Below the pieces are notes generated by a model. It saw only the letters and a list, made by a program, of their open reading frames with translations. It searched no databases and was not told the DNA's origin. A program made the translations under genes and the position numbers. A stretch of DNA of 64,000 bases from Octopus vulgaris (taxonomy: Eukaryota), in the NCBI GenBank assembly GCA_951406725.2, contig OX597826.1:26474001-26538000 (forward strand), in the 5' to 3' direction. This document shows positions 30,217 through 61,758 of the stretch, piece by piece (positions within the stretch are counted from its first letter, which is position 1; each line of letters begins with the position of its first letter).

Positions 30217-32560
30217 AATCAGGTGTCCTTTTGATCCCAAAAGATGAACATTGCACGCTGTTGTTTCGGACACTTCTCCTGGAGTTGACGGGCACGAACG
30301 ATCATATCAATTGTGCCTCGAGAAGTTCGAATACCACACTGAGACTCAGGGAGTACGTTTTCTGCGAGGATGAGGAAGCGATTGGGTAGGATACGGGTGA
30401 AGATCTTACTTCCAATACTCAAGAGAGATGTCCCGATAGTTGTTGCAATCCTCTCAGTCTCCCTGCTTGTAGATGGTGATGATAGTTGCATCGCGGAAGT
30501 CGTTCGGGGGGGGGAGGGTTCTTGCTTTTCCAGATCCTGATGATAAGGAGCATCAAATGATTTGTCAGCTGAGGACCTCTGTGCATGAAAAACTCAAACG
30601 GGATGTTGTCTGGTCCTGGAGCTTTCTCCGGCATCATGTGCGCAAGTGCTTTGTTGATCTCATGGCTTGAGGGTGGCAGGGACATCCGATTGCGGATGGG
30701 GAGCTGTGGGGTGTTTTGGAGGAGATCATCAGGAGTGCGTATGTGGTCGTTAAGTATGCACTCGAAATGGGACTTCCAGCGATCGAGGTTTCCATGGGTG
30801 TCGGTTATAGTAGAGCCAGCTGCGTTCTTCAGGTCATCCACTAATGACCTTGTAGGGCCGAAGATCTTGGTTGCAGCATAAAAGCTGTGCAATGGTCCGG
30901 ATAGTTTTGAGTCTCCCATGGCACAGATATTATGAGCTTCTCAAATCCCTCGCTGGCATTCCGTTGATGCTTGCTGGTGTTTACTTTTGTTCTCCGCAGT
31001 GGCATGGTTCTCGGAATTTGGTTTAGAAAACATGGGAGATGGTTTCATCATTCTCGTCAAACCAGTCTTGGTCCTTCTTTCGGGCAAGGCCGATTTCCTC
31101 CTCGGCGACAGCGGTCATTGCTTCACGAAGGCTGGTCCAGCGATTCTCAATAGAGCTTGGCTCTGGGAGGTTCATCAGATGTATCTCAATAGATTCCCTG
31201 AAGTCTTGGGATGCCTATGAGATCCGGTGTTTGGCGCAATCGAAGCGTCAATACGGGATACTTCCTGTGACCCGCTTTGGTGGACTGCAGATGTGATGGT
31301 AAGAAATAAGAAGGCGGTGGTCCATCATCTGTATCAGGCATGGAGCGGGTGATACGTACATCTCCTCTGTCACTGTCACTGGATCTTGTTAGAAAGTGGT
31401 CGAGAATGTACCAGTGTTTAGACAATGGGTGTTTTCAGGTTTTTTTGTCGGGTAGGGAGACGAAATATGCAGTTGGTCATGACGAGTTCGTGCTCGCCGT
31501 AAGGCCCAAGAGGAACTAGCCATCGGCATTGCATTTCCCAATGGCGTGGTGACCAAGAATGCCATTCCACAAACAATGGTCACTGCCGACTCTGCCGTTA
31601 AAGTTCCCCAGCACGACGTGTTTGTCATGTGCAGGTACTGTCTGGATGGTGCGGTCTAGCAGGTTGTAGAACGAAGTTTTGATGTCGTCTTCAGATGTGA
31701 GTGTAGGGGCATACACAGATATCAGCCTAAGGAATCTGTCCCGAAAGAGTGAGATCCGAATAGTCATCAGGCGCTAACTGACAGCAGTTGGGACGAGTCT
31801 GTGTTGATCCAAGAGTTGCGTTTTGATGGCAGAGCCAACTCCATGGATGCGTGGTTCATTAGCATTCTTCCCCTTCCAAAATATGGTGGATTTGGAGCCA
31901 GCTTCTCTGATGCTGCCTTCTCCAGGAAGCCTAGTCTCGCTCAAGTCTGCCACATCGATGTTGAAGCCGTCAAGTACCTTGCTGACGTGGGCTGTATGTC
32001 ACTCTGTTCGATTAATGTCACTCTTGTCCTGAAGTGTGCGGATGTTCCAGGCCACGAAATTGAGAAGTTGTGAAACAGAGGATTTAATTGAGTTCAGACC
32101 GCTAAGTGGGAGGTCCGCCAGCAACGGTATGCTGGCTAGATCGAGTTGCCGTGTCCGATGTTTACACCACCTTTTCTAGGGTCTTCCCCTTGAGGGGTGG
32201 GCTGCGGCTATCCTAAGGGCCCAGCCCAGTCACGACTCTAGCTGCCGAACTCCAATATCACGGCTATTCACTGGAGAGCGACTGAGATCCGCCGCCAATG
32301 TGTGGTCACGGACTAGAGGCTTCCAGCTTTCCAGACCTGCCTCTGGTCCCCACGATACCATCGACATTGGGCGTTTTGAGACAGATTAGAAAGATGAAGG
32401 AATTCATGGAGTAAATTGTTTATAAGTGATCGTGTAAATAAGTGATCGTGGCTGCACTTGGCCAGGAATGTCTCCATGGCGGATCAAGTATCAATGGAAC
32501 ACACAATCTTTTGGAATCACTGGAACACGCAAGCTCTTCCACCACAAGGGACGACCATCA
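30217..32560 (-). mobile_element. Decayed RTE-clade LINE (5' UTR, AP endonuclease, start of RT)
   Basis: Minus-strand NFVAWNIRTL, DLSETRLPGEGS, MTIRISL..ISVYAPT, LGNFNGRVG, KHWYILDHFL, KAPGPDNIP and LPESQCGIR..RGTIDMI..ARQLQEKC. RTE-like 5' motif ccttgtggtggaagagcttgcgtg near 32530-32550. Multiple frameshifts. Confidence 0.9.
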
Positions 32561-40495: not shown

Positions 40496-41174
40496 GTGAG
40501 TTATAGAGTAAACAAATTTTTACAGTGGGAACCGTAGTAAAAACAGGGAGAGAGAAATTGTATTATCAACAATAAAAGGGTAAAATAAATTAATTATTAA
40601 TTAATTTCACCAATTAGTGTTCAGTATGTAAAAGGACCATTCAAGGTATATTTAAAATATTACGTTATATAATTAGGGCTCAGTAAAATAATATACTTTA
40701 CCAGACACTGAAACTTTTAGAAATAGCAGCCAAAAAGTTTTATTAGCTATTTCTTCTACTATAAGAAAAGTCTCCCAGATAGTGTTTACTCAAAAATAAT
40801 TCACGCAGATATGGAGGGAAAAATAACAAATTATCACATGTACAAAGATCATTTGAGAACGTTAACGTTTCTAGATTAGTTGAATTTAAAACTCAACACA
40901 ATACAATTTCTCTCTCTCAGTTTTTACTACGGTTCTCACTGTAAAAATTTGTTAACTCTATAACTCACGTGGATGGAAGCGGGAGGAATGCAGAGCCTCA
41001 TTCGTACTTTTTGAATTTGCTGGTACTGGCAGTTGAAAATGGTTTGTCTGAGATTACTCATATCAGATGGGTATGTTCGATTTTTAGTGCTCTCAAATCC
41101 AAATATAAGAAATATTGAGCTGACGAAGGAAGTGTTGAGTTTTAAATTCAACTAATCTAGAAACGTTAACGTTC
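40496..41174. mobile_element. Hammerhead-bearing inverted/permuted element, copy 1
   Basis: Interleaved inverted pairs ~40496-40564/40900-40968 and ~40857-40899/41132-41174; homologous to the 59 kb element. Confidence 0.75.
41115..41174 (+). ncRNA. Type I hammerhead-like ribozyme truncated just after its cleavage site
   Basis: TTGAG-CTGACGA-A-GGA-agt-GTTGAGT-tttaa-ATTCAAC-taa-TCT-A-GAAA-CG-ttaa-CGT-T. The missing stem I 3' strand (CTCAA) is seen in the inverted copy near 40852-40857. Confidence 0.65.
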
Positions 41175-42533: not shown

Positions 42534-43190
42534 ACAAAAGAAAAATTCTAATGCCATATATGCCGAAAAAAAGACAAAATTGTCAATAACCATTATAATT
42601 TATGCGCCTCGAAACAAACCGATAGAAATTTCTAAAAATTCCGTTATTACCGTATTGGTCCCAATTTCGGGGTTAATTCATAAGAAGTTTTCGAAAAAAG
42701 AAATTTTTCCTACATTGGTTGTAAATTTAATAGTGTTCACTTCCGGATTCTCTCTCTCTGTGAAAGTTTCTAGATCGAATCACACGTGTCTCGAGATGTG
42801 CCGAAGATTTTCTATCTTTTATATATTTGGGGTACTTAGGTCTGCTCAGGACTTAGTGCTTGCTTTTTCCATGGGTATGAGTAAGTATTCCATTTATGTC
42901 TTACGTATTTATCGCTGAAGAGGGGAAAATTCTTATGAATTAACCCCGAAATTAGGACCAATACGGTAATAATGGATTTTTTAGAAATTTCTATCGGTTT
43001 GTTTCGAGGCGCATAAATTATAATGGTTATTGACAATTTTGTATTTTTTTCGGCATATTTGGCATTAGAATTTTTCTTTTGCCCTTATTTTGTAAGTTAT
43101 TAATAAATTTAACCTTTAAATGTATTTTTTTATATGCTGGCCATTGATAAATTTTTTTTTTCGAAAAATAAAATTTATCCTACATTAGTT
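42534..43190. mobile_element. Hammerhead-bearing inverted/permuted element, copy 2, inside (AT)n
   Basis: Inverted arms ~42534-42690/42925-43082; direct 30 bp redundancy 42691-42720/43161-43190; (AT)n on both flanks. Confidence 0.8.
42909..42969 (+). ncRNA. Type I hammerhead ribozyme
   Basis: Stem I TTATCG/CGGTAA; core CTGAAGA; stem II GGGG-aaa-ATTC-ttat-GAAT-taa-CCCC; GAAA; stem III ATT(a/g)-ggac-CAAT (fully paired in the inverted copy); predicted cleavage after ATA at 42963. Confidence 0.8.
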
Positions 43191-51576: not shown

Positions 51577-52118
51577 GCCCTGATGCAGTACCATGCAGTG
51601 GCTCTCATGGCTTCTGATCTTAACTGATTGGAAGTGCTATCATGTACATTGTTTTGTATAAAAGATGGGCTACAGCAAATATTCTGCTCAATACCACAGA
51701 TTTGCTAGTCAGTTGTTTAACCTTAACCAGTTGACCATGTCCCTTGGTGGATGACGATATGTGCATCTCTGATCACGAGCAGAAGTAGTGGGGGAGCATC
51801 ATAGCCATGTGTTGAAAGCAATTCTTAGAGGTTTGGGTAATTCACCTTAGGAAACACGGGTGATTCGTTCAACGTCCTTAAACAATTCAGGGACCTTTTG
51901 AGCGGGATGGGCTACTCGACCAGAAGAAAATTCTAACTGGGCCCCACCTGCAAGGTCATGTGCTGTTTATCTTGATATGAGATCACCATGTCGCGCACAT
52001 ATGGTTGTGATGCATGTGTCTGGTGTACCCTTATCATACAGGTAGTCATGATGGGTATACTGGGCTTTGTATATTTTACCCCAGTGTCACTTTGATGGCA
52101 TGCACTGCTCTCTCACTC
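51575..52118. mobile_element. ~540 bp non-coding interspersed element embedded in (AAT)n
   Basis: Sharp boundaries with (AAT)n on both sides; collinear with a second copy at ~50725-51485. Confidence 0.75.
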
Positions 52119-52165
<47 letters not shown>

Positions 52166-52181
52166 TAATAATAATAATAAT

Positions 52182-54208
52182 ATATCACAAAGGCTGAACA
52201 AGCACCTGGACGAAAACAAACTGTTCCCAGAAGAGCAGAAAGGATGCCGCAAAGGCTCATATGGCTGTAAAGATCAACTAATGATTAATAAAGCCATAAC
52301 TAAAGACAGCCACAGAAAGAAGAAAGGCCTCAGTATGGCCTGGATTGACTACAAAAAGGCGTTTGAAAGCATCCCCCACACATGGATCCTCGAAACACTA
52401 GCCATTAACAAAGTAACACCAACAATCATAAAATTCATAGAGCACTCTATGAATAAATGGCAAACAGTCCTACACCTCCAAACAAAAGACGGACTCATGA
52501 AAACCAAAGACATCCCCATTAGAAGAGGAATATTCCAGGGAGACACGCTCTCTCCACTCCTTTTCTGCTTGGCACTGTCACCTCTATCTGATATGCTAAA
52601 TAGAACTGGATGCGGATATAAATGTTACGGGAAAACGATCAGCCACCTTTTATATATGGATGACCTAAAACTATACGCTGCAAATGACAAACAGCTGGAA
52701 ACACTATTAAAGACAGTTCATGGATTTACCAAAGAAATAGATATGAAATTTGGATTAGAAAAATGCGCCAAAGTAACCCTGAAAAGAGGAAAACTAGTTA
52801 AGAGTAACAACATCACACTAGATAAAACAAATGAAATAAAAGAATTAGACCAAAGCCAAACTTACAAATACTTAGGAATCCATGAACTAGATAAGACACA
52901 ACACACACAAATGAAAGAGAAAATAAAAAAAGAATATTATAGACGAGTTAGATCAATACTAAACACAGAGCTCAATGCTAAAAACAAGATAATAGGTATC
53001 AACACTTTAGCTGTCCCAGTTATAAGTTACAGCTACAATATCCTTAACTGGACACGAAATGAACTGACCAAAATAGATAGGAAAACAAGAAAAATAATGA
53101 CAGGATCTAGGATGCATCACCCAAAATCTGACATAGAAAGACTATATATACAACGTATAGAAGGTGGTAGAGGCCTTATACAGCTGGAAAACTACTATAA
53201 AATAACCACCATAGGACTGCAAAAATATCTACTTCAGAAGGAAGGAAAACTGATCCAGATAGCGGCAAAACACGAGCAAAACAAAAAACTGTTCTCAGTA
53301 TTTAAGGAAGCTGACAAATACAAACAAGAAATCATACCACCGAATAAACATGAAGAAGAAGAAGATGAAGAAACAACAAAAGCTATAAAACAAATGAAAT
53401 CCAAACTAAAAATAGAACAGCAACGAACCATGATAAAACGATGGCAAGAAAAACCCCTTCATGGTAAATACTGGACTAAACTAAACGCAAAAGAAATAGA
53501 CAAAGAAAAATCCCAGCAATGGTTGAGAAGCTCAGGACTCAAAGCAGAAACAGAGGGATTTTTAATTGCAGCACAAGACCAAAGCCTCCCCACCAGAAAT
53601 TACCAAAAACATGTAATAAAAAGAAATATTACAAGTAACTGCAGAATATGTGGAGATGGACAAGAAACAATAAATCATATTATCTCTAGCTGCCCAGTCT
53701 TGGCTAAGAAGGAATATATTCAGAGACATGACAGAGTTGGAACCTACATACATTGGAAGCTATGCCAACATTATGGAATAACAACAGAAAAAAGATGGTA
53801 TAGGCACACACCAGAAAAGGTCACAGAAAACGAGAAAGCAACCATACTCTGGGATATGCCGATACACACAGATAGAGAAATTAAGGCCAACAGACCAGAT
53901 ATAGTTGTCAGAGATCATGAAAAAAAAAATGCTTTCTAATTGATGTATCAATACCGGCTGATGACAACGTGTCTCTAACAGAAATGGAGAAACTCTCAAA
54001 ATACAAAGACCTGGAAATAGAGGTAACTAGAATGTGGAATCTGAAAACAGAAACAATTCCTATCATAGTAGGTGCATTAGGCATGATAAAAAAATATTCA
54101 GACAAATACATAACAAAAACACCAGGACTTACAAACACATATAACATACAGAAAATTGCACTACTAGGCACTGCACACATCCTACGCAGAACACTTTCCA
54201 TACAATAA
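52182..54208 (+). pseudogene. RT/RLE polyprotein, N-terminally truncated, single frameshift in the A10 run at 53920-53929
   Basis: About 580 uninterrupted codons, then a frame change that rejoins ORF 53969-54208. The ORF-track start at 52014 is upstream non-coding sequence plus AAT repeat. Confidence 0.88.
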
Positions 54209-59003: not shown

Positions 59004-59054
<51 letters not shown>

Positions 59055-59240
59055 TAACAATGAGGGTCTTTGCAACAGGTTGCTAGACCACATACAGAAA
59101 GCATTAGAAATAGCAGCCAGACGACTGTTATTTCTTTTACTACAATAATAAGTGTCCCACAGACAAACGGTATTTGTAACTCACTATGGCAAAAAAAAAA
59201 ACAACGAAGAAAAACAACGAAATCAAACAGTGTCCGGTCA

Positions 59241-59300
59241 ATTATGGACGCATACGTTTCTGGATTAGAATCAGGGATTCATTTCCTTCATCAACATAAT
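59241..59300 (-). ncRNA. Type I hammerhead-like ribozyme (inverted copy)
   Basis: Reverse complement of the motif at 59647-59704, with stem III ACG-tatg-CGT and a GTC site. Confidence 0.7.
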
Positions 59301-59646
59301 ATTCCGATAAATAAATCTAGAAATGCTAGGAAATCTTACCCTCCATATTCCGAACATGCGAAATCGGGGCATACAGAAGCTAATCAGCATATCCACATTT
59401 ATATAGACAAGTGAATTCGTATCTCCCTCCAGAATTTCTCCCACGTGAGTCACAAATAATACTGCCGAAAATGAATTCGTAGTTCCGTCATATGGGGAGT
59501 AAAATAATCAATACAGATAAAGGGTGAAATATAATTCATTTAATGAAATCAACAAATTTCACCAAGTAGTTTTTCGGTATGGAAAAGGACCATATTCGGT
59601 ATGGAGGGTAAGATTTCCTAGCATTTCTAGATTTATTTATCGGAAT

Positions 59647-59704
59647 ATTATGTTGATGAAGGAAATGAATCCCTGATTCTAATCCAGAAACGTGCGTCCA
59701 TAAT
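59647..59704 (+). ncRNA. Type I hammerhead-like ribozyme (variant core)
   Basis: Stem I ATTATG/CATAAT; core TTGATGA plus A; stem II GGA-aat-GAATC-cct-GATTC-taa-TCC; A-GAAA; stem III ACG-tg-CGT; GTC site at 59698. Confidence 0.7.
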
Positions 59705-60238
59705 TGACCGGACACTGTTTGATTTCGTTATTTTTCTTCGTTTTTTTGCCATAGTGAGTTACAAATACTGTTGTCTGTGGGACATATTTTTGTAGTAAAA
59801 GAAATAACAGTCGTCTGGCTGCTATTTCTAATACTTTCGGTATGTGGTCTAGCAACCTGTTGCAAAGACCCTCATTGTTATAATCATATATAATTTTACC
59901 GAATATGGTCCTTTTCCATACCGAAAAACTACTTGGTGAAATTTGTTGATTTTATTAAATTAATTATATTTCACCCTTTATCTGTATACATGTGATACCT
60001 ACAATCACTACAGTAACATATATAGCTTAAACATAGAAAGAAGTCACTATTTTCCTATCATCGTAATCGTTTGTATGGTCTTATCTCTTCTTGTACCCTA
60101 TTTCTATCATCTATACTAAGCATCGCATTCAACATTTCAGATAATTTTGAATCTCAGAACATAGTCCTTCCGTAACGCATCCTCTCTCTGTTTTCGCTAG
60201 AAGCATTAAGTAACAAAATTTAAACTGATCACCAAGGG

Positions 60239-61074: not shown

Positions 61075-61758
61075 AGAGTCAGTGTGTTTGGCCTGGGAAT
61101 CCACATGAGCAACGACGCAACGTTCCATGTGCACAGTGTTCAAATGGCAGCACTATGCAGGTAGGTGGCAGGTTGGATCCTTAGATCCTTCAGGACCAGG
61201 AACAGGAACACAGTGCTTCTGCTTTGGCAAAGCTTTGTCCTTAGTCGCCCGGATTACTGTTCGCGGTGTGGTCCCCATATGGTACAAAACTAATTGCGGC
61301 ACAAGAAGCGATCCAACGCTTAAAGAAGATAGACTCTGGAAAACACATGGGCTACTGTGAGAGATTGAAGGAACTGGGACTCTACTCCGTAGAGAGGAGA
61401 CGTGAGAGAATACATAAAGGATTTGGCTCCAAATTTCGGAATTGAAATCTACAATAATTCCCGAACTGGACGGCACTGCACTGTACCAAAGATCCCATCT
61501 CCATCGAGGATATGTACTGAATATAGTAATTCAGAACATCAGTGATCTGCAGGGTGTAGACATGAAAGTCTTCAAAAAACTTTTAGACAGTTTTTTTCAT
61601 CTGCAGTTCCGGATGAATCTACATCGCGACAGGAGACACAAAGAAAGCGGCAACGTCCAACTCGCTACTTCACCAGAAGCAATACTAGATAAAATCCCCG
61701 GATGCAGTAATGGTGGCGCACCAGCATGGCCTCATCCTCTGGCTGACACCCATTAAAT
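61075..61758 (+). mobile_element. CR1-type LINE 3' fragment
   Basis: [15 protein letters not shown]...GWILRSFRTRN..VLLLWQSFVLSRPDYCS and ERLKELGLYSVERRRE are typical of CR1-clade RT C-termini; stops and frameshifts are present. Confidence 0.82.

What the first reader, a model, noticed from the sequence alone, without database searches (positions are those of the whole stretch)
59051..59987. Two inverted arms are different circular permutations of one ~560 nt unit
The left piece reads A-x-B; the right piece, reverse-complemented, reads B-y-A. Both orders can only come from a circular or tandem template B-y-A-x (~560 nt by hand count) with one hammerhead per unit. That is what a self-cleaved, circularised RNA monomer would give. 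The junction at ~59600 has ttcgg/ta microhomology.
Basis: partly seen in the sequence, partly recalled or inferred. Interest (0 to 1): 0.8.

Follow-up and report, generated by a model that had tools for sequence, protein, structure and literature searches.

The report
Head-to-head Penelope-type hammerhead retroelement insertion
This is one copy of an abundant non-coding repeat with a predicted self-cutting RNA motif, present as two back-to-back arms beside a TA microsatellite and likely pasted in by a Penelope-type enzyme; it is a new member of a known kind, and it does not by itself show a circular RNA.

Summary
Left arm 59051-59601 and right arm 59600-59987 are inverted, start at different points of one 551-563 nt non-coding unit, meet 5'-to-5' with microhomology, and each carries a type I hammerhead-like motif. 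Two further elements in the window are built the same way. Contigs of other copies in public runs bridge all three unit junctions and show similar head-to-head joints elsewhere, so misassembly is unlikely. The circle is allowed but not required: a linear B-x-A-y-B RNA (1.15 units) explains both orders. This is the published Penelope-like (PLE) insertion pattern: partial tandem, inverted 5'-truncated copy, optional tail, microsatellite target. Best reading: a non-autonomous PLE-mobilised element (animal retrozyme kind), likely primed from both ends of one break. Cleavage, expression, circles and the partner enzyme are untested. The scan has reported this architecture before on other DNA. New member of a known kind; interest 0.35.

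The parts
59051..59601 (-). Left arm, read B-x-A on the minus strand; 551 nt, one unit less about 4-12 nt; its 3' end runs into (TA)n
59600..59987 (+). Right arm, read A-y-B on the plus strand; 388 nt
59043..59347 (-). Segment A, left copy (59043-59050 is overlap between the unit's TA-rich stretch and the microsatellite)
59348..59510 (-). Segment x, 163 nt, present only in the left arm
   Evidence: bridged to A and to B in other copies, table 8
59511..59601 (-). Segment B, left copy (5' start of the left arm)
59594..59601 (.). Head-to-head (5'-to-5') junction with 2-nt TA overlap and adjacent 5-nt match
   Evidence: sequence; alignment
59600..59892 (+). Segment A, right copy
59647..59704 (+). 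Type I hammerhead-like motif: 6-bp stem I, core with U3, extra A on each side of the stem II base, 2-bp stem III; predicted cut after 59698
59241..59300 (-). Second copy of the hammerhead-like motif; predicted cut after 59247; 2 nt longer loop III
59880..59896 (+). TA-rich stretch including y; equivalent to the left arm's 3' end (inferred priming site 1)
   Evidence: family letter at 59885 is T; one other copy ends here in (TA)n
59897..59987 (+). Segment B, right copy; tail-like extension whose end is the commonest listed 3' end of the family (inferred priming site 2)
   Evidence: table 7; table 7
59020..59050 (.). (TA)n microsatellite at the left boundary, inferred target
   Evidence: sequence

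Best explanation
The stretch is two inverted, differently phased copies of one ~560-nt non-coding unit with a hammerhead-like motif, likely inserted in one event by a borrowed Penelope-like (PLE) reverse transcriptase-endonuclease. Inferred mechanism: both strands of a (TA)n target are cut; each 3' end primes reverse transcription at one of two preferred internal sites about 100 nt apart (the TA-rich stretch and the end of B); the two cDNAs grow towards each other, stop at different places and are joined 5'-to-5' by microhomology. Both arms read through the predicted ribozyme cut, so the template was intact there. I commit, narrowly, to an uncut linear more-than-unit transcript (B-x-A-y-B is enough). 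Shown: geometry, junctions in other copies, clustering of 3' ends, motif and its compensatory changes. Inferred: enzyme, two-ended priming, template form. Confidence in the class (non-autonomous PLE-type hammerhead element) is about 0.9; the number given is for the whole statement.
For: Head-to-head geometry recurs in two other elements in the window, 40496-41174 (unit 567) and 42535-43190 (unit 470, (TA)n on both sides). In other copies 8 of 14 listed joints run from the left arm into the right arm, the same antisense-to-sense geometry at other positions; 4 more are 'opposite strands' of unstated orientation (table 5). Loose ends behind 59986-59988 with a (TA)n consensus: X1 14 contigs, X4 12+13, X7 6; X4 5 more at the left-arm equivalent 59504 (24 of 436 rows shown). 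Summed depth is about tenfold higher over the last 180 nt than over the hammerhead and x. Outer ends show 8-nt and 3-nt overlaps with TA. The arms carry the same minority letter at 11 of 12 listed majority-difference rows and differ by 8 substitutions in 384 columns. Stems I and II covary among the three elements (read by eye). Literature: PLE insertions have a partial tandem, an inverted 5'-truncated copy, an optional tail and microsatellite bias (PMC8557442); head-to-head is the commonest inverted form (PMC3846280); hammerhead pairs 100-700 bp apart on opposite strands, U3-A8 cores, an extra base after position 9 and palindromic short helix III are PLE features (PMC4209133); a purified PLE protein cuts and extends both strands, starts at two internal sites and mostly uses uncleaved RNA (PMC11167929).
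Against: No autonomous PLE partner was identified (no genome held). The two 3' ends are about 100 nt apart, longer than the 30-40 nt PLE tail. The element at 40496-41174 does not end at these sites or at (TA)n. X3 shows no row at 59986-59988 among those listed, and support for the site in y rests on this arm plus one contig. Most joints have short sides (21-47 nt) at 88% likeness, and depth is not a copy number. The shared-letter count is biased, because positions where the left arm has the majority letter tend not to be listed for the right arm. Frangieh et al. found priming without homology, whereas these ends show short overlaps. Rfam finds no hammerhead family even at E 10. A purely linear cycle does not explain how more-than-unit copies are regenerated over time.
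Confidence: 0.45

Rival explanations
1. Same enzyme and two-ended priming, but the template is a self-cleaved and re-ligated ~560-nt circular RNA.
For: Both arms read through the predicted cut; the left arm is one round less 4-12 nt and the long arm at 42691-43190 is one round plus about 30 nt. The unit folds more stably than shuffles on the sense strand (z -4.2, 0 of 100 shuffles; antisense z -1.7). Animal non-LTR retrozymes of coral, mussel and axolotl do give circRNAs, and a circle as PLE template has been proposed (PMC7229834; PMC4209133).
Against: A linear 1.15-unit RNA explains the locus. The long pairing that flanks the hammerhead is no better than with shuffled partners (z -0.2, 0.4, -0.8), and 1 of 12 background windows reached z -4.4. 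PLE-type hammerheads with a very short helix III cleave poorly in vitro, and 8 of 9 Xenopus retrozyme dimers did not cleave.
Confidence: 0.35
2. The template is a self-cleaved linear monomer, and the enzyme jumps from its 5' end to a 3' end across the cut.
For: One of the 4 indels between the arms lies in loop III, about 6 nt before the predicted cut. The right arm of the element at 40496-41174 ends 1 nt past its predicted cut. Lead from earlier AI note e1-8664908.
Against: No substitution or indel row at the cut among the rows listed (40 of 84 substitution rows, 12 of 48 indel rows; 40 of 55 and 12 of 26). The end at 41174 abuts another repeat that starts at about 41171, so it may be a later break.
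Confidence: 0.1
3. A partial-tandem copy inserted first and the inverted arm arose later at DNA level (replication template switch or repair), or gene conversion made the arms alike.
For: Junction microhomology and shared private letters fit any copying from one source.
Against: Each arm holds sequence the other lacks (x, y) and each ends at a family-typical 3' end; the geometry recurs in three elements of one window and in other copies.
Confidence: 0.07
4. Local misassembly.
For: No listed contig crosses the central junction; contigs at the right flank reach only 29 and 26 letters into the element, under the tool's 31-letter bridging rule.
Against: Arms differ by 8 substitutions and 4 indels and are permuted, not a mirror fold-back; the architecture recurs.
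Confidence: 0.03

Closest known systems
Animal non-LTR retrozymes (Cervera and de la Pena 2020, PMC7229834: passages and Discussion read; Li, Clavereau and Pollet 2026, bioRxiv 10.64898/2026.07.22.740005: parts 1-3 of 5 read, supplements not seen)
   Same: Non-coding, low-GC unit within the reported size range (51-972 bp), one type I hammerhead motif per unit, high copy number, PLE proposed as mobiliser.
   Different: This locus has no two consecutive complete units in tandem (Li et al.'s criterion for an active retrozyme); it is a head-to-head pair. The hammerhead has PLE-type features. Circles and cleavage are not shown.
EN+ Penelope-like elements and their pLTR/tail/inverted-copy insertions (PMC8557442 and PMC3846280: passages read; PMC11167929: parts 1-2 of 4 read)
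   Same: Partial tandem plus inverted 5'-truncated copy, head-to-head junction with microhomology, two preferred 3' ends, microsatellite target, hammerhead in the repeated part.
   Different: No ORF or RT/GIY-YIG sequence (longest stop-free frames about 120 codons); the tail-like segment is about 100 nt; sequence homology to an autonomous PLE was not tested.
PLE hammerhead variants (Cervera and de la Pena 2014, PMC4209133: parts 1-2 of 4 read)
   Same: Extra base between 9 and 10.1, G10.1-C11.1, long helix II, tiny near-palindromic helix III, U3 with A8 in part of the family, motif pairs on opposite strands a few hundred bases apart.
   Different: A second unpaired A between 11.1 and G12, kept in the 65%-identical element at 41120; U3 faces G8 in this copy.
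LINE-1 twin priming (recalled, not read here)
   Same: Second target end primes internally and gives a 5'-to-5' inverted junction.
   Different: In L1 the two cDNAs cover adjacent parts of one RNA from a poly(A) end; here they overlap by about 290 nt plus B and there is no poly(A) tail.

Membership tests
Animal non-LTR retrozyme | Non-coding unit of about 50-1000 nt | tested here: met
   551-563 nt, stops in all six frames
Animal non-LTR retrozyme | One type I hammerhead motif per unit | tested here: met
   Descriptor hit in each arm, 0 hits in 100 shuffles; compensatory stems across three elements; no Rfam match
Animal non-LTR retrozyme | Head-to-tail organisation of units | tested here: inconclusive
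   All three unit junctions bridged in other copies (table 8), but no locus with two consecutive complete units was seen; this locus is not one
Animal non-LTR retrozyme | Self-cleavage and circular RNA | not testable with these tools
   Only assembled contigs were available, none on record as RNA
Animal non-LTR retrozyme | Dispersed, high-copy family | tested here: met
   440-1193 contigs laid per run in 4 of 4 DNA-like runs, 4 coded organisms
Autonomous EN+ PLE | ORF with RT and GIY-YIG endonuclease | tested here: not met
   No such ORF in 59043-59990
PLE-mobilised non-autonomous element | Inverted 5'-truncated copy joined head-to-head | tested here: met
PLE-mobilised non-autonomous element | Two preferred 3' ends (tail signature) | tested here: inconclusive
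   End of B well supported in 3 of 4 runs; the y site rests on the left arm plus one contig; spacing about 100 nt, not 30-40
PLE-mobilised non-autonomous element | AT-rich or microsatellite target | tested here: met
   (TA)n at the left boundary and behind other copies
PLE-mobilised non-autonomous element | Homology to the pLTR of an autonomous PLE in the same genome | not testable with these tools
   No genome held
Rfam hammerhead families | Match at gathering score | tested here: not met
   0 matches in the window; none at E up to 10

The most novel reading that the evidence does not exclude
The locus is the footprint of a ~560-nt circular ribozyme RNA copied by a Penelope-type enzyme from both ends of one DNA break, from two fixed sites on the circle, the long arm stopping after about one round. 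That would explain the PLE inversion, tail and partial tandem in one mechanism, and the family would carry a hammerhead variant with an A-A insertion at the base of stem II.
Probability: 0.3. Interest if true: 0.65.

Novelty: new member of a known kind. Interest (0 to 1): 0.35.

Why it matters
How Penelope-like elements make their inverted ends, tails and more-than-unit copies, and whether animal retrozymes are moved by them through RNA circles, is proposed but not shown. Short, abundant non-coding families like this one allow those models to be tested by counting ends and arm-to-arm differences over many insertions. This single, somewhat aged copy adds one family and one example; it does not settle the template question.

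Tried and rejected
Whole genome: none held. Rfam: 0 matches at gathering, only chance matches at E up to 10. MFE folding of the 86-nt motif alone: z about -0.1, no support by energy. Exact-pattern scan of metagenome contigs: 0 hits; the pattern later proved to include letters private to this locus, so the blank means nothing; the second scan was not used. No RNA holder listed; four runs guessed to be RNA hold short pieces only (9-131 contigs laid), which says nothing on expression, strand, ends or circles. Rod-like viroid structure: global z -4.1 to -4.2 but the flanking duplex is not sequence-specific, so not used as support. Coding element: rejected. nhmmer found no further copies of the three units in the window. 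Look-ups of earlier findings by sequence and by relatives: nothing. Paper searches: 'Penelope-like' + 'twin priming' 3 papers, none on this by title or abstract start; 'octopus' + 'hammerhead ribozyme' 5 papers, 4 listed, none describing such a family; 'octopus' + 'Penelope' + 'non-autonomous' 3 papers (PMC8967140 passages only say Penelope is abundant in coleoids); one search was uninformative (4,965 papers, 12 listed, none with 'retrozyme'); some searches gave the papers cited. Subscription papers and Repbase/Dfam were not searchable.

Full report
Setting. The window is AT-rich, microsatellite-laden DNA. A reverse-transcriptase ORF at 52011-53939 has as nearest atlas cluster a eukaryotic one, commonest phylum Mollusca. 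That the host is an octopus is my recall of its repeats plus unverified earlier AI notes, not a tested result. No whole genome is held.

Observation. Self-BLAST confirms two inverted matches: A, 59043-59347 with 59600-59892, and B, 59511-59601 with 59897-59987. Global alignment gives 6 substitutions and 4 indels in 293 columns for A and 2 substitutions in 91 for B. x (163 nt) is only in the left arm and y (4-12 nt) only in the right. The implied unit is 551-563 nt. Taking the hammerhead strand as sense, the left arm runs leftward (B-x-A) and the right arm rightward (A-y-B), so they meet 5'-to-5' at about 59600 and their 3' ends face outward. Relative to the predicted cut the left arm spans -354 to +196 and the right arm -98 to +289. 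Their union is a linear B-x-A-y-B stretch of 1.15 units. No frame is open across the unit.

The hammerhead motif. Each arm has a type I motif with a 6-bp stem I, a core starting with U in place of C3, an extra A after A9, a G-C-closed stem II with an internal loop, an extra A before G12, and a 2-bp stem III with a near-palindromic loop. A strict descriptor finds 3 sites in the window and none in 100 of 100 shuffles. Rfam finds nothing and the isolated motif does not fold better than shuffles. Comparison with the two other elements shows, by eye, double-sided changes in stem I and wholly different but paired distal stem II sequences. In runs, position 8 reads A in roughly half the depth at 59289 in X1 and X3, the U3-A8 variant described for PLEs (PMC4209133). 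That paper also reports motif pairs 100-700 bp apart on opposite strands, and low in vitro activity. Cleavage here is untested.

Recurrence. The window holds two more elements of the same build. One at 40496-41174 is about 65% identical, unit 567, head-to-head junction at 40899/40900, and spans the A-y-B junction independently. One at 42535-43190 is another family, unit 470, with (TA)n on both sides. Twenty of 24 listed public runs, from four coded organisms, hold part of the stretch, none half of its words. In four DNA-like runs 440-1193 contigs were laid. Contigs of other copies bridge B-x (X1 record 3), x-A (X4 record 18, X7 records 26, 27) and A-y-B (X1 record 6, X3 records 15, 16). Of 14 listed joints, 8 go from the left arm into the right arm, that is the same antisense-to-sense geometry at other positions, 4 are opposite-strand joints of unstated orientation and 2 are internal skips; sides are short (21-47 nt). 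This locus's own central junction is not spanned by any of the 32 listed pieces (3429 not shown).

Ends are not scattered. Among the 24 listed loose-end rows (412 not shown), those behind 59986-59988 have a (TA)n consensus and are among the largest in X1 (14 contigs), X4 (12 and 13) and X7 (6); X3 has no such row listed. One search adds four single contigs ending at 59979-59985 in TA runs and one running into (TA)n at the y site (24 of 71 rows shown). Summed depth is about tenfold higher over the last 180 nt than over the hammerhead and x; the tool warns this is not a copy number, and sharing of B with other families may contribute (loose ends before 59894-59896). The right arm ends at the B site with a 3-nt overlap with TA; the left arm ends at the y site with an 8-nt overlap. 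The two 3' ends of the 470-nt element are 109 nt apart, similar to about 100 here; the 567-nt element does not fit this pattern.

One source. At 11 of the 12 listed right-arm positions where X1 shows another letter in 49% or more of depth, the left arm has the same minority letter; at 59672 the remaining depth in X1 (about 53) equals the flank depth (52). The selection is biased towards shared letters, and gene conversion could also do this, but it fits both arms being copied from one source and drifting about 2% since.

Mechanism. Published PLE insertions are partial tandems with an inverted 5'-truncated copy, an optional tail and microsatellite bias (PMC8557442, passages); head-to-head is the usual inverted form and was there ascribed to self-priming on an antisense template (PMC3846280, passages). 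A purified PLE protein cuts and extends both strands, starts at two internal sites, and mostly uses uncleaved RNA (PMC11167929). I infer two-ended target priming at two preferred sites, with the cDNAs joined by microhomology. The template had to be intact across the ribozyme cut. An uncut linear more-than-unit RNA (0.45) and a closed circle (0.35) both fit; a jump across the cut (0.10), DNA-level rearrangement (0.07) and misassembly (0.03) fit less well. For the circle: long arms of about one round, sense-strand folding z -4.2, and circRNAs shown for other animal retrozymes (PMC7229834). Against leaning on the fold: the flanking duplex is not sequence-specific and 1 of 12 background windows scored as low. 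RNA data could not be tested.

Comparison and novelty. It works like a non-autonomous PLE derivative of the animal retrozyme kind (bioRxiv 10.64898/2026.07.22.740005; its supplements were not seen and could list similar families). Membership is met for a non-coding unit, motif and copy number; inconclusive for tandem arrays; untested for cleavage, circles and pLTR homology. I found no paper on this family or on two-ended priming by PLEs, which cover open-licence papers only. The scan's own notes already describe the same architecture on another genome and for several other unit sizes in this genome; these are unchecked and are not counted as support. Verdict: real, new member of a known kind, interest 0.35.

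Noticed in passing
window 40496-41174: Second head-to-head element, about 65% identical to the finding, unit 567 nt, hammerhead core with C3 at +41120; right arm ends 1 nt past the predicted cut, next to another repeat starting about 41171.
   Followed up: partly
window 42535-43190: Third head-to-head element of another family, unit 470 nt, canonical-looking hammerhead at +42915, (TA)n on both sides, long arm one unit plus about 30 nt.
   Followed up: partly
window 40899/40900 and 42690/42691: In both other elements the arms start at nearly the same distances before the predicted cut (-41 and -273; -37 and -272) although the families differ. Unexplained; may be chance.
   Followed up: no
window 59660, 59686 and 41127-41159: An unpaired A on both sides of the stem II base is kept in two elements 35% apart, and all three motifs share the 3' side of the stem II internal loop.
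   Followed up: partly
window 28460, + strand: A further hammerhead-like descriptor hit (5-bp stem I, palindromic loop III) unrelated to the three elements.
   Followed up: no
window 59894-59896 and 59816-59848: Many contigs join B to other upstream sequence, and a 33-nt block in A is shared by contigs with different flanks: probably related subfamilies or an autonomous partner.
   Followed up: no
window 52011-53939, + strand: 642-codon reverse transcriptase (RVT_1) frame of a non-LTR retrotransposon; nearest atlas cluster mostly Mollusca.
   Followed up: partly
window 30219-30940 and 61153-61756: Fragmentary frames resembling other non-LTR retrotransposon proteins (resemblance recalled, not tested).
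   Followed up: no
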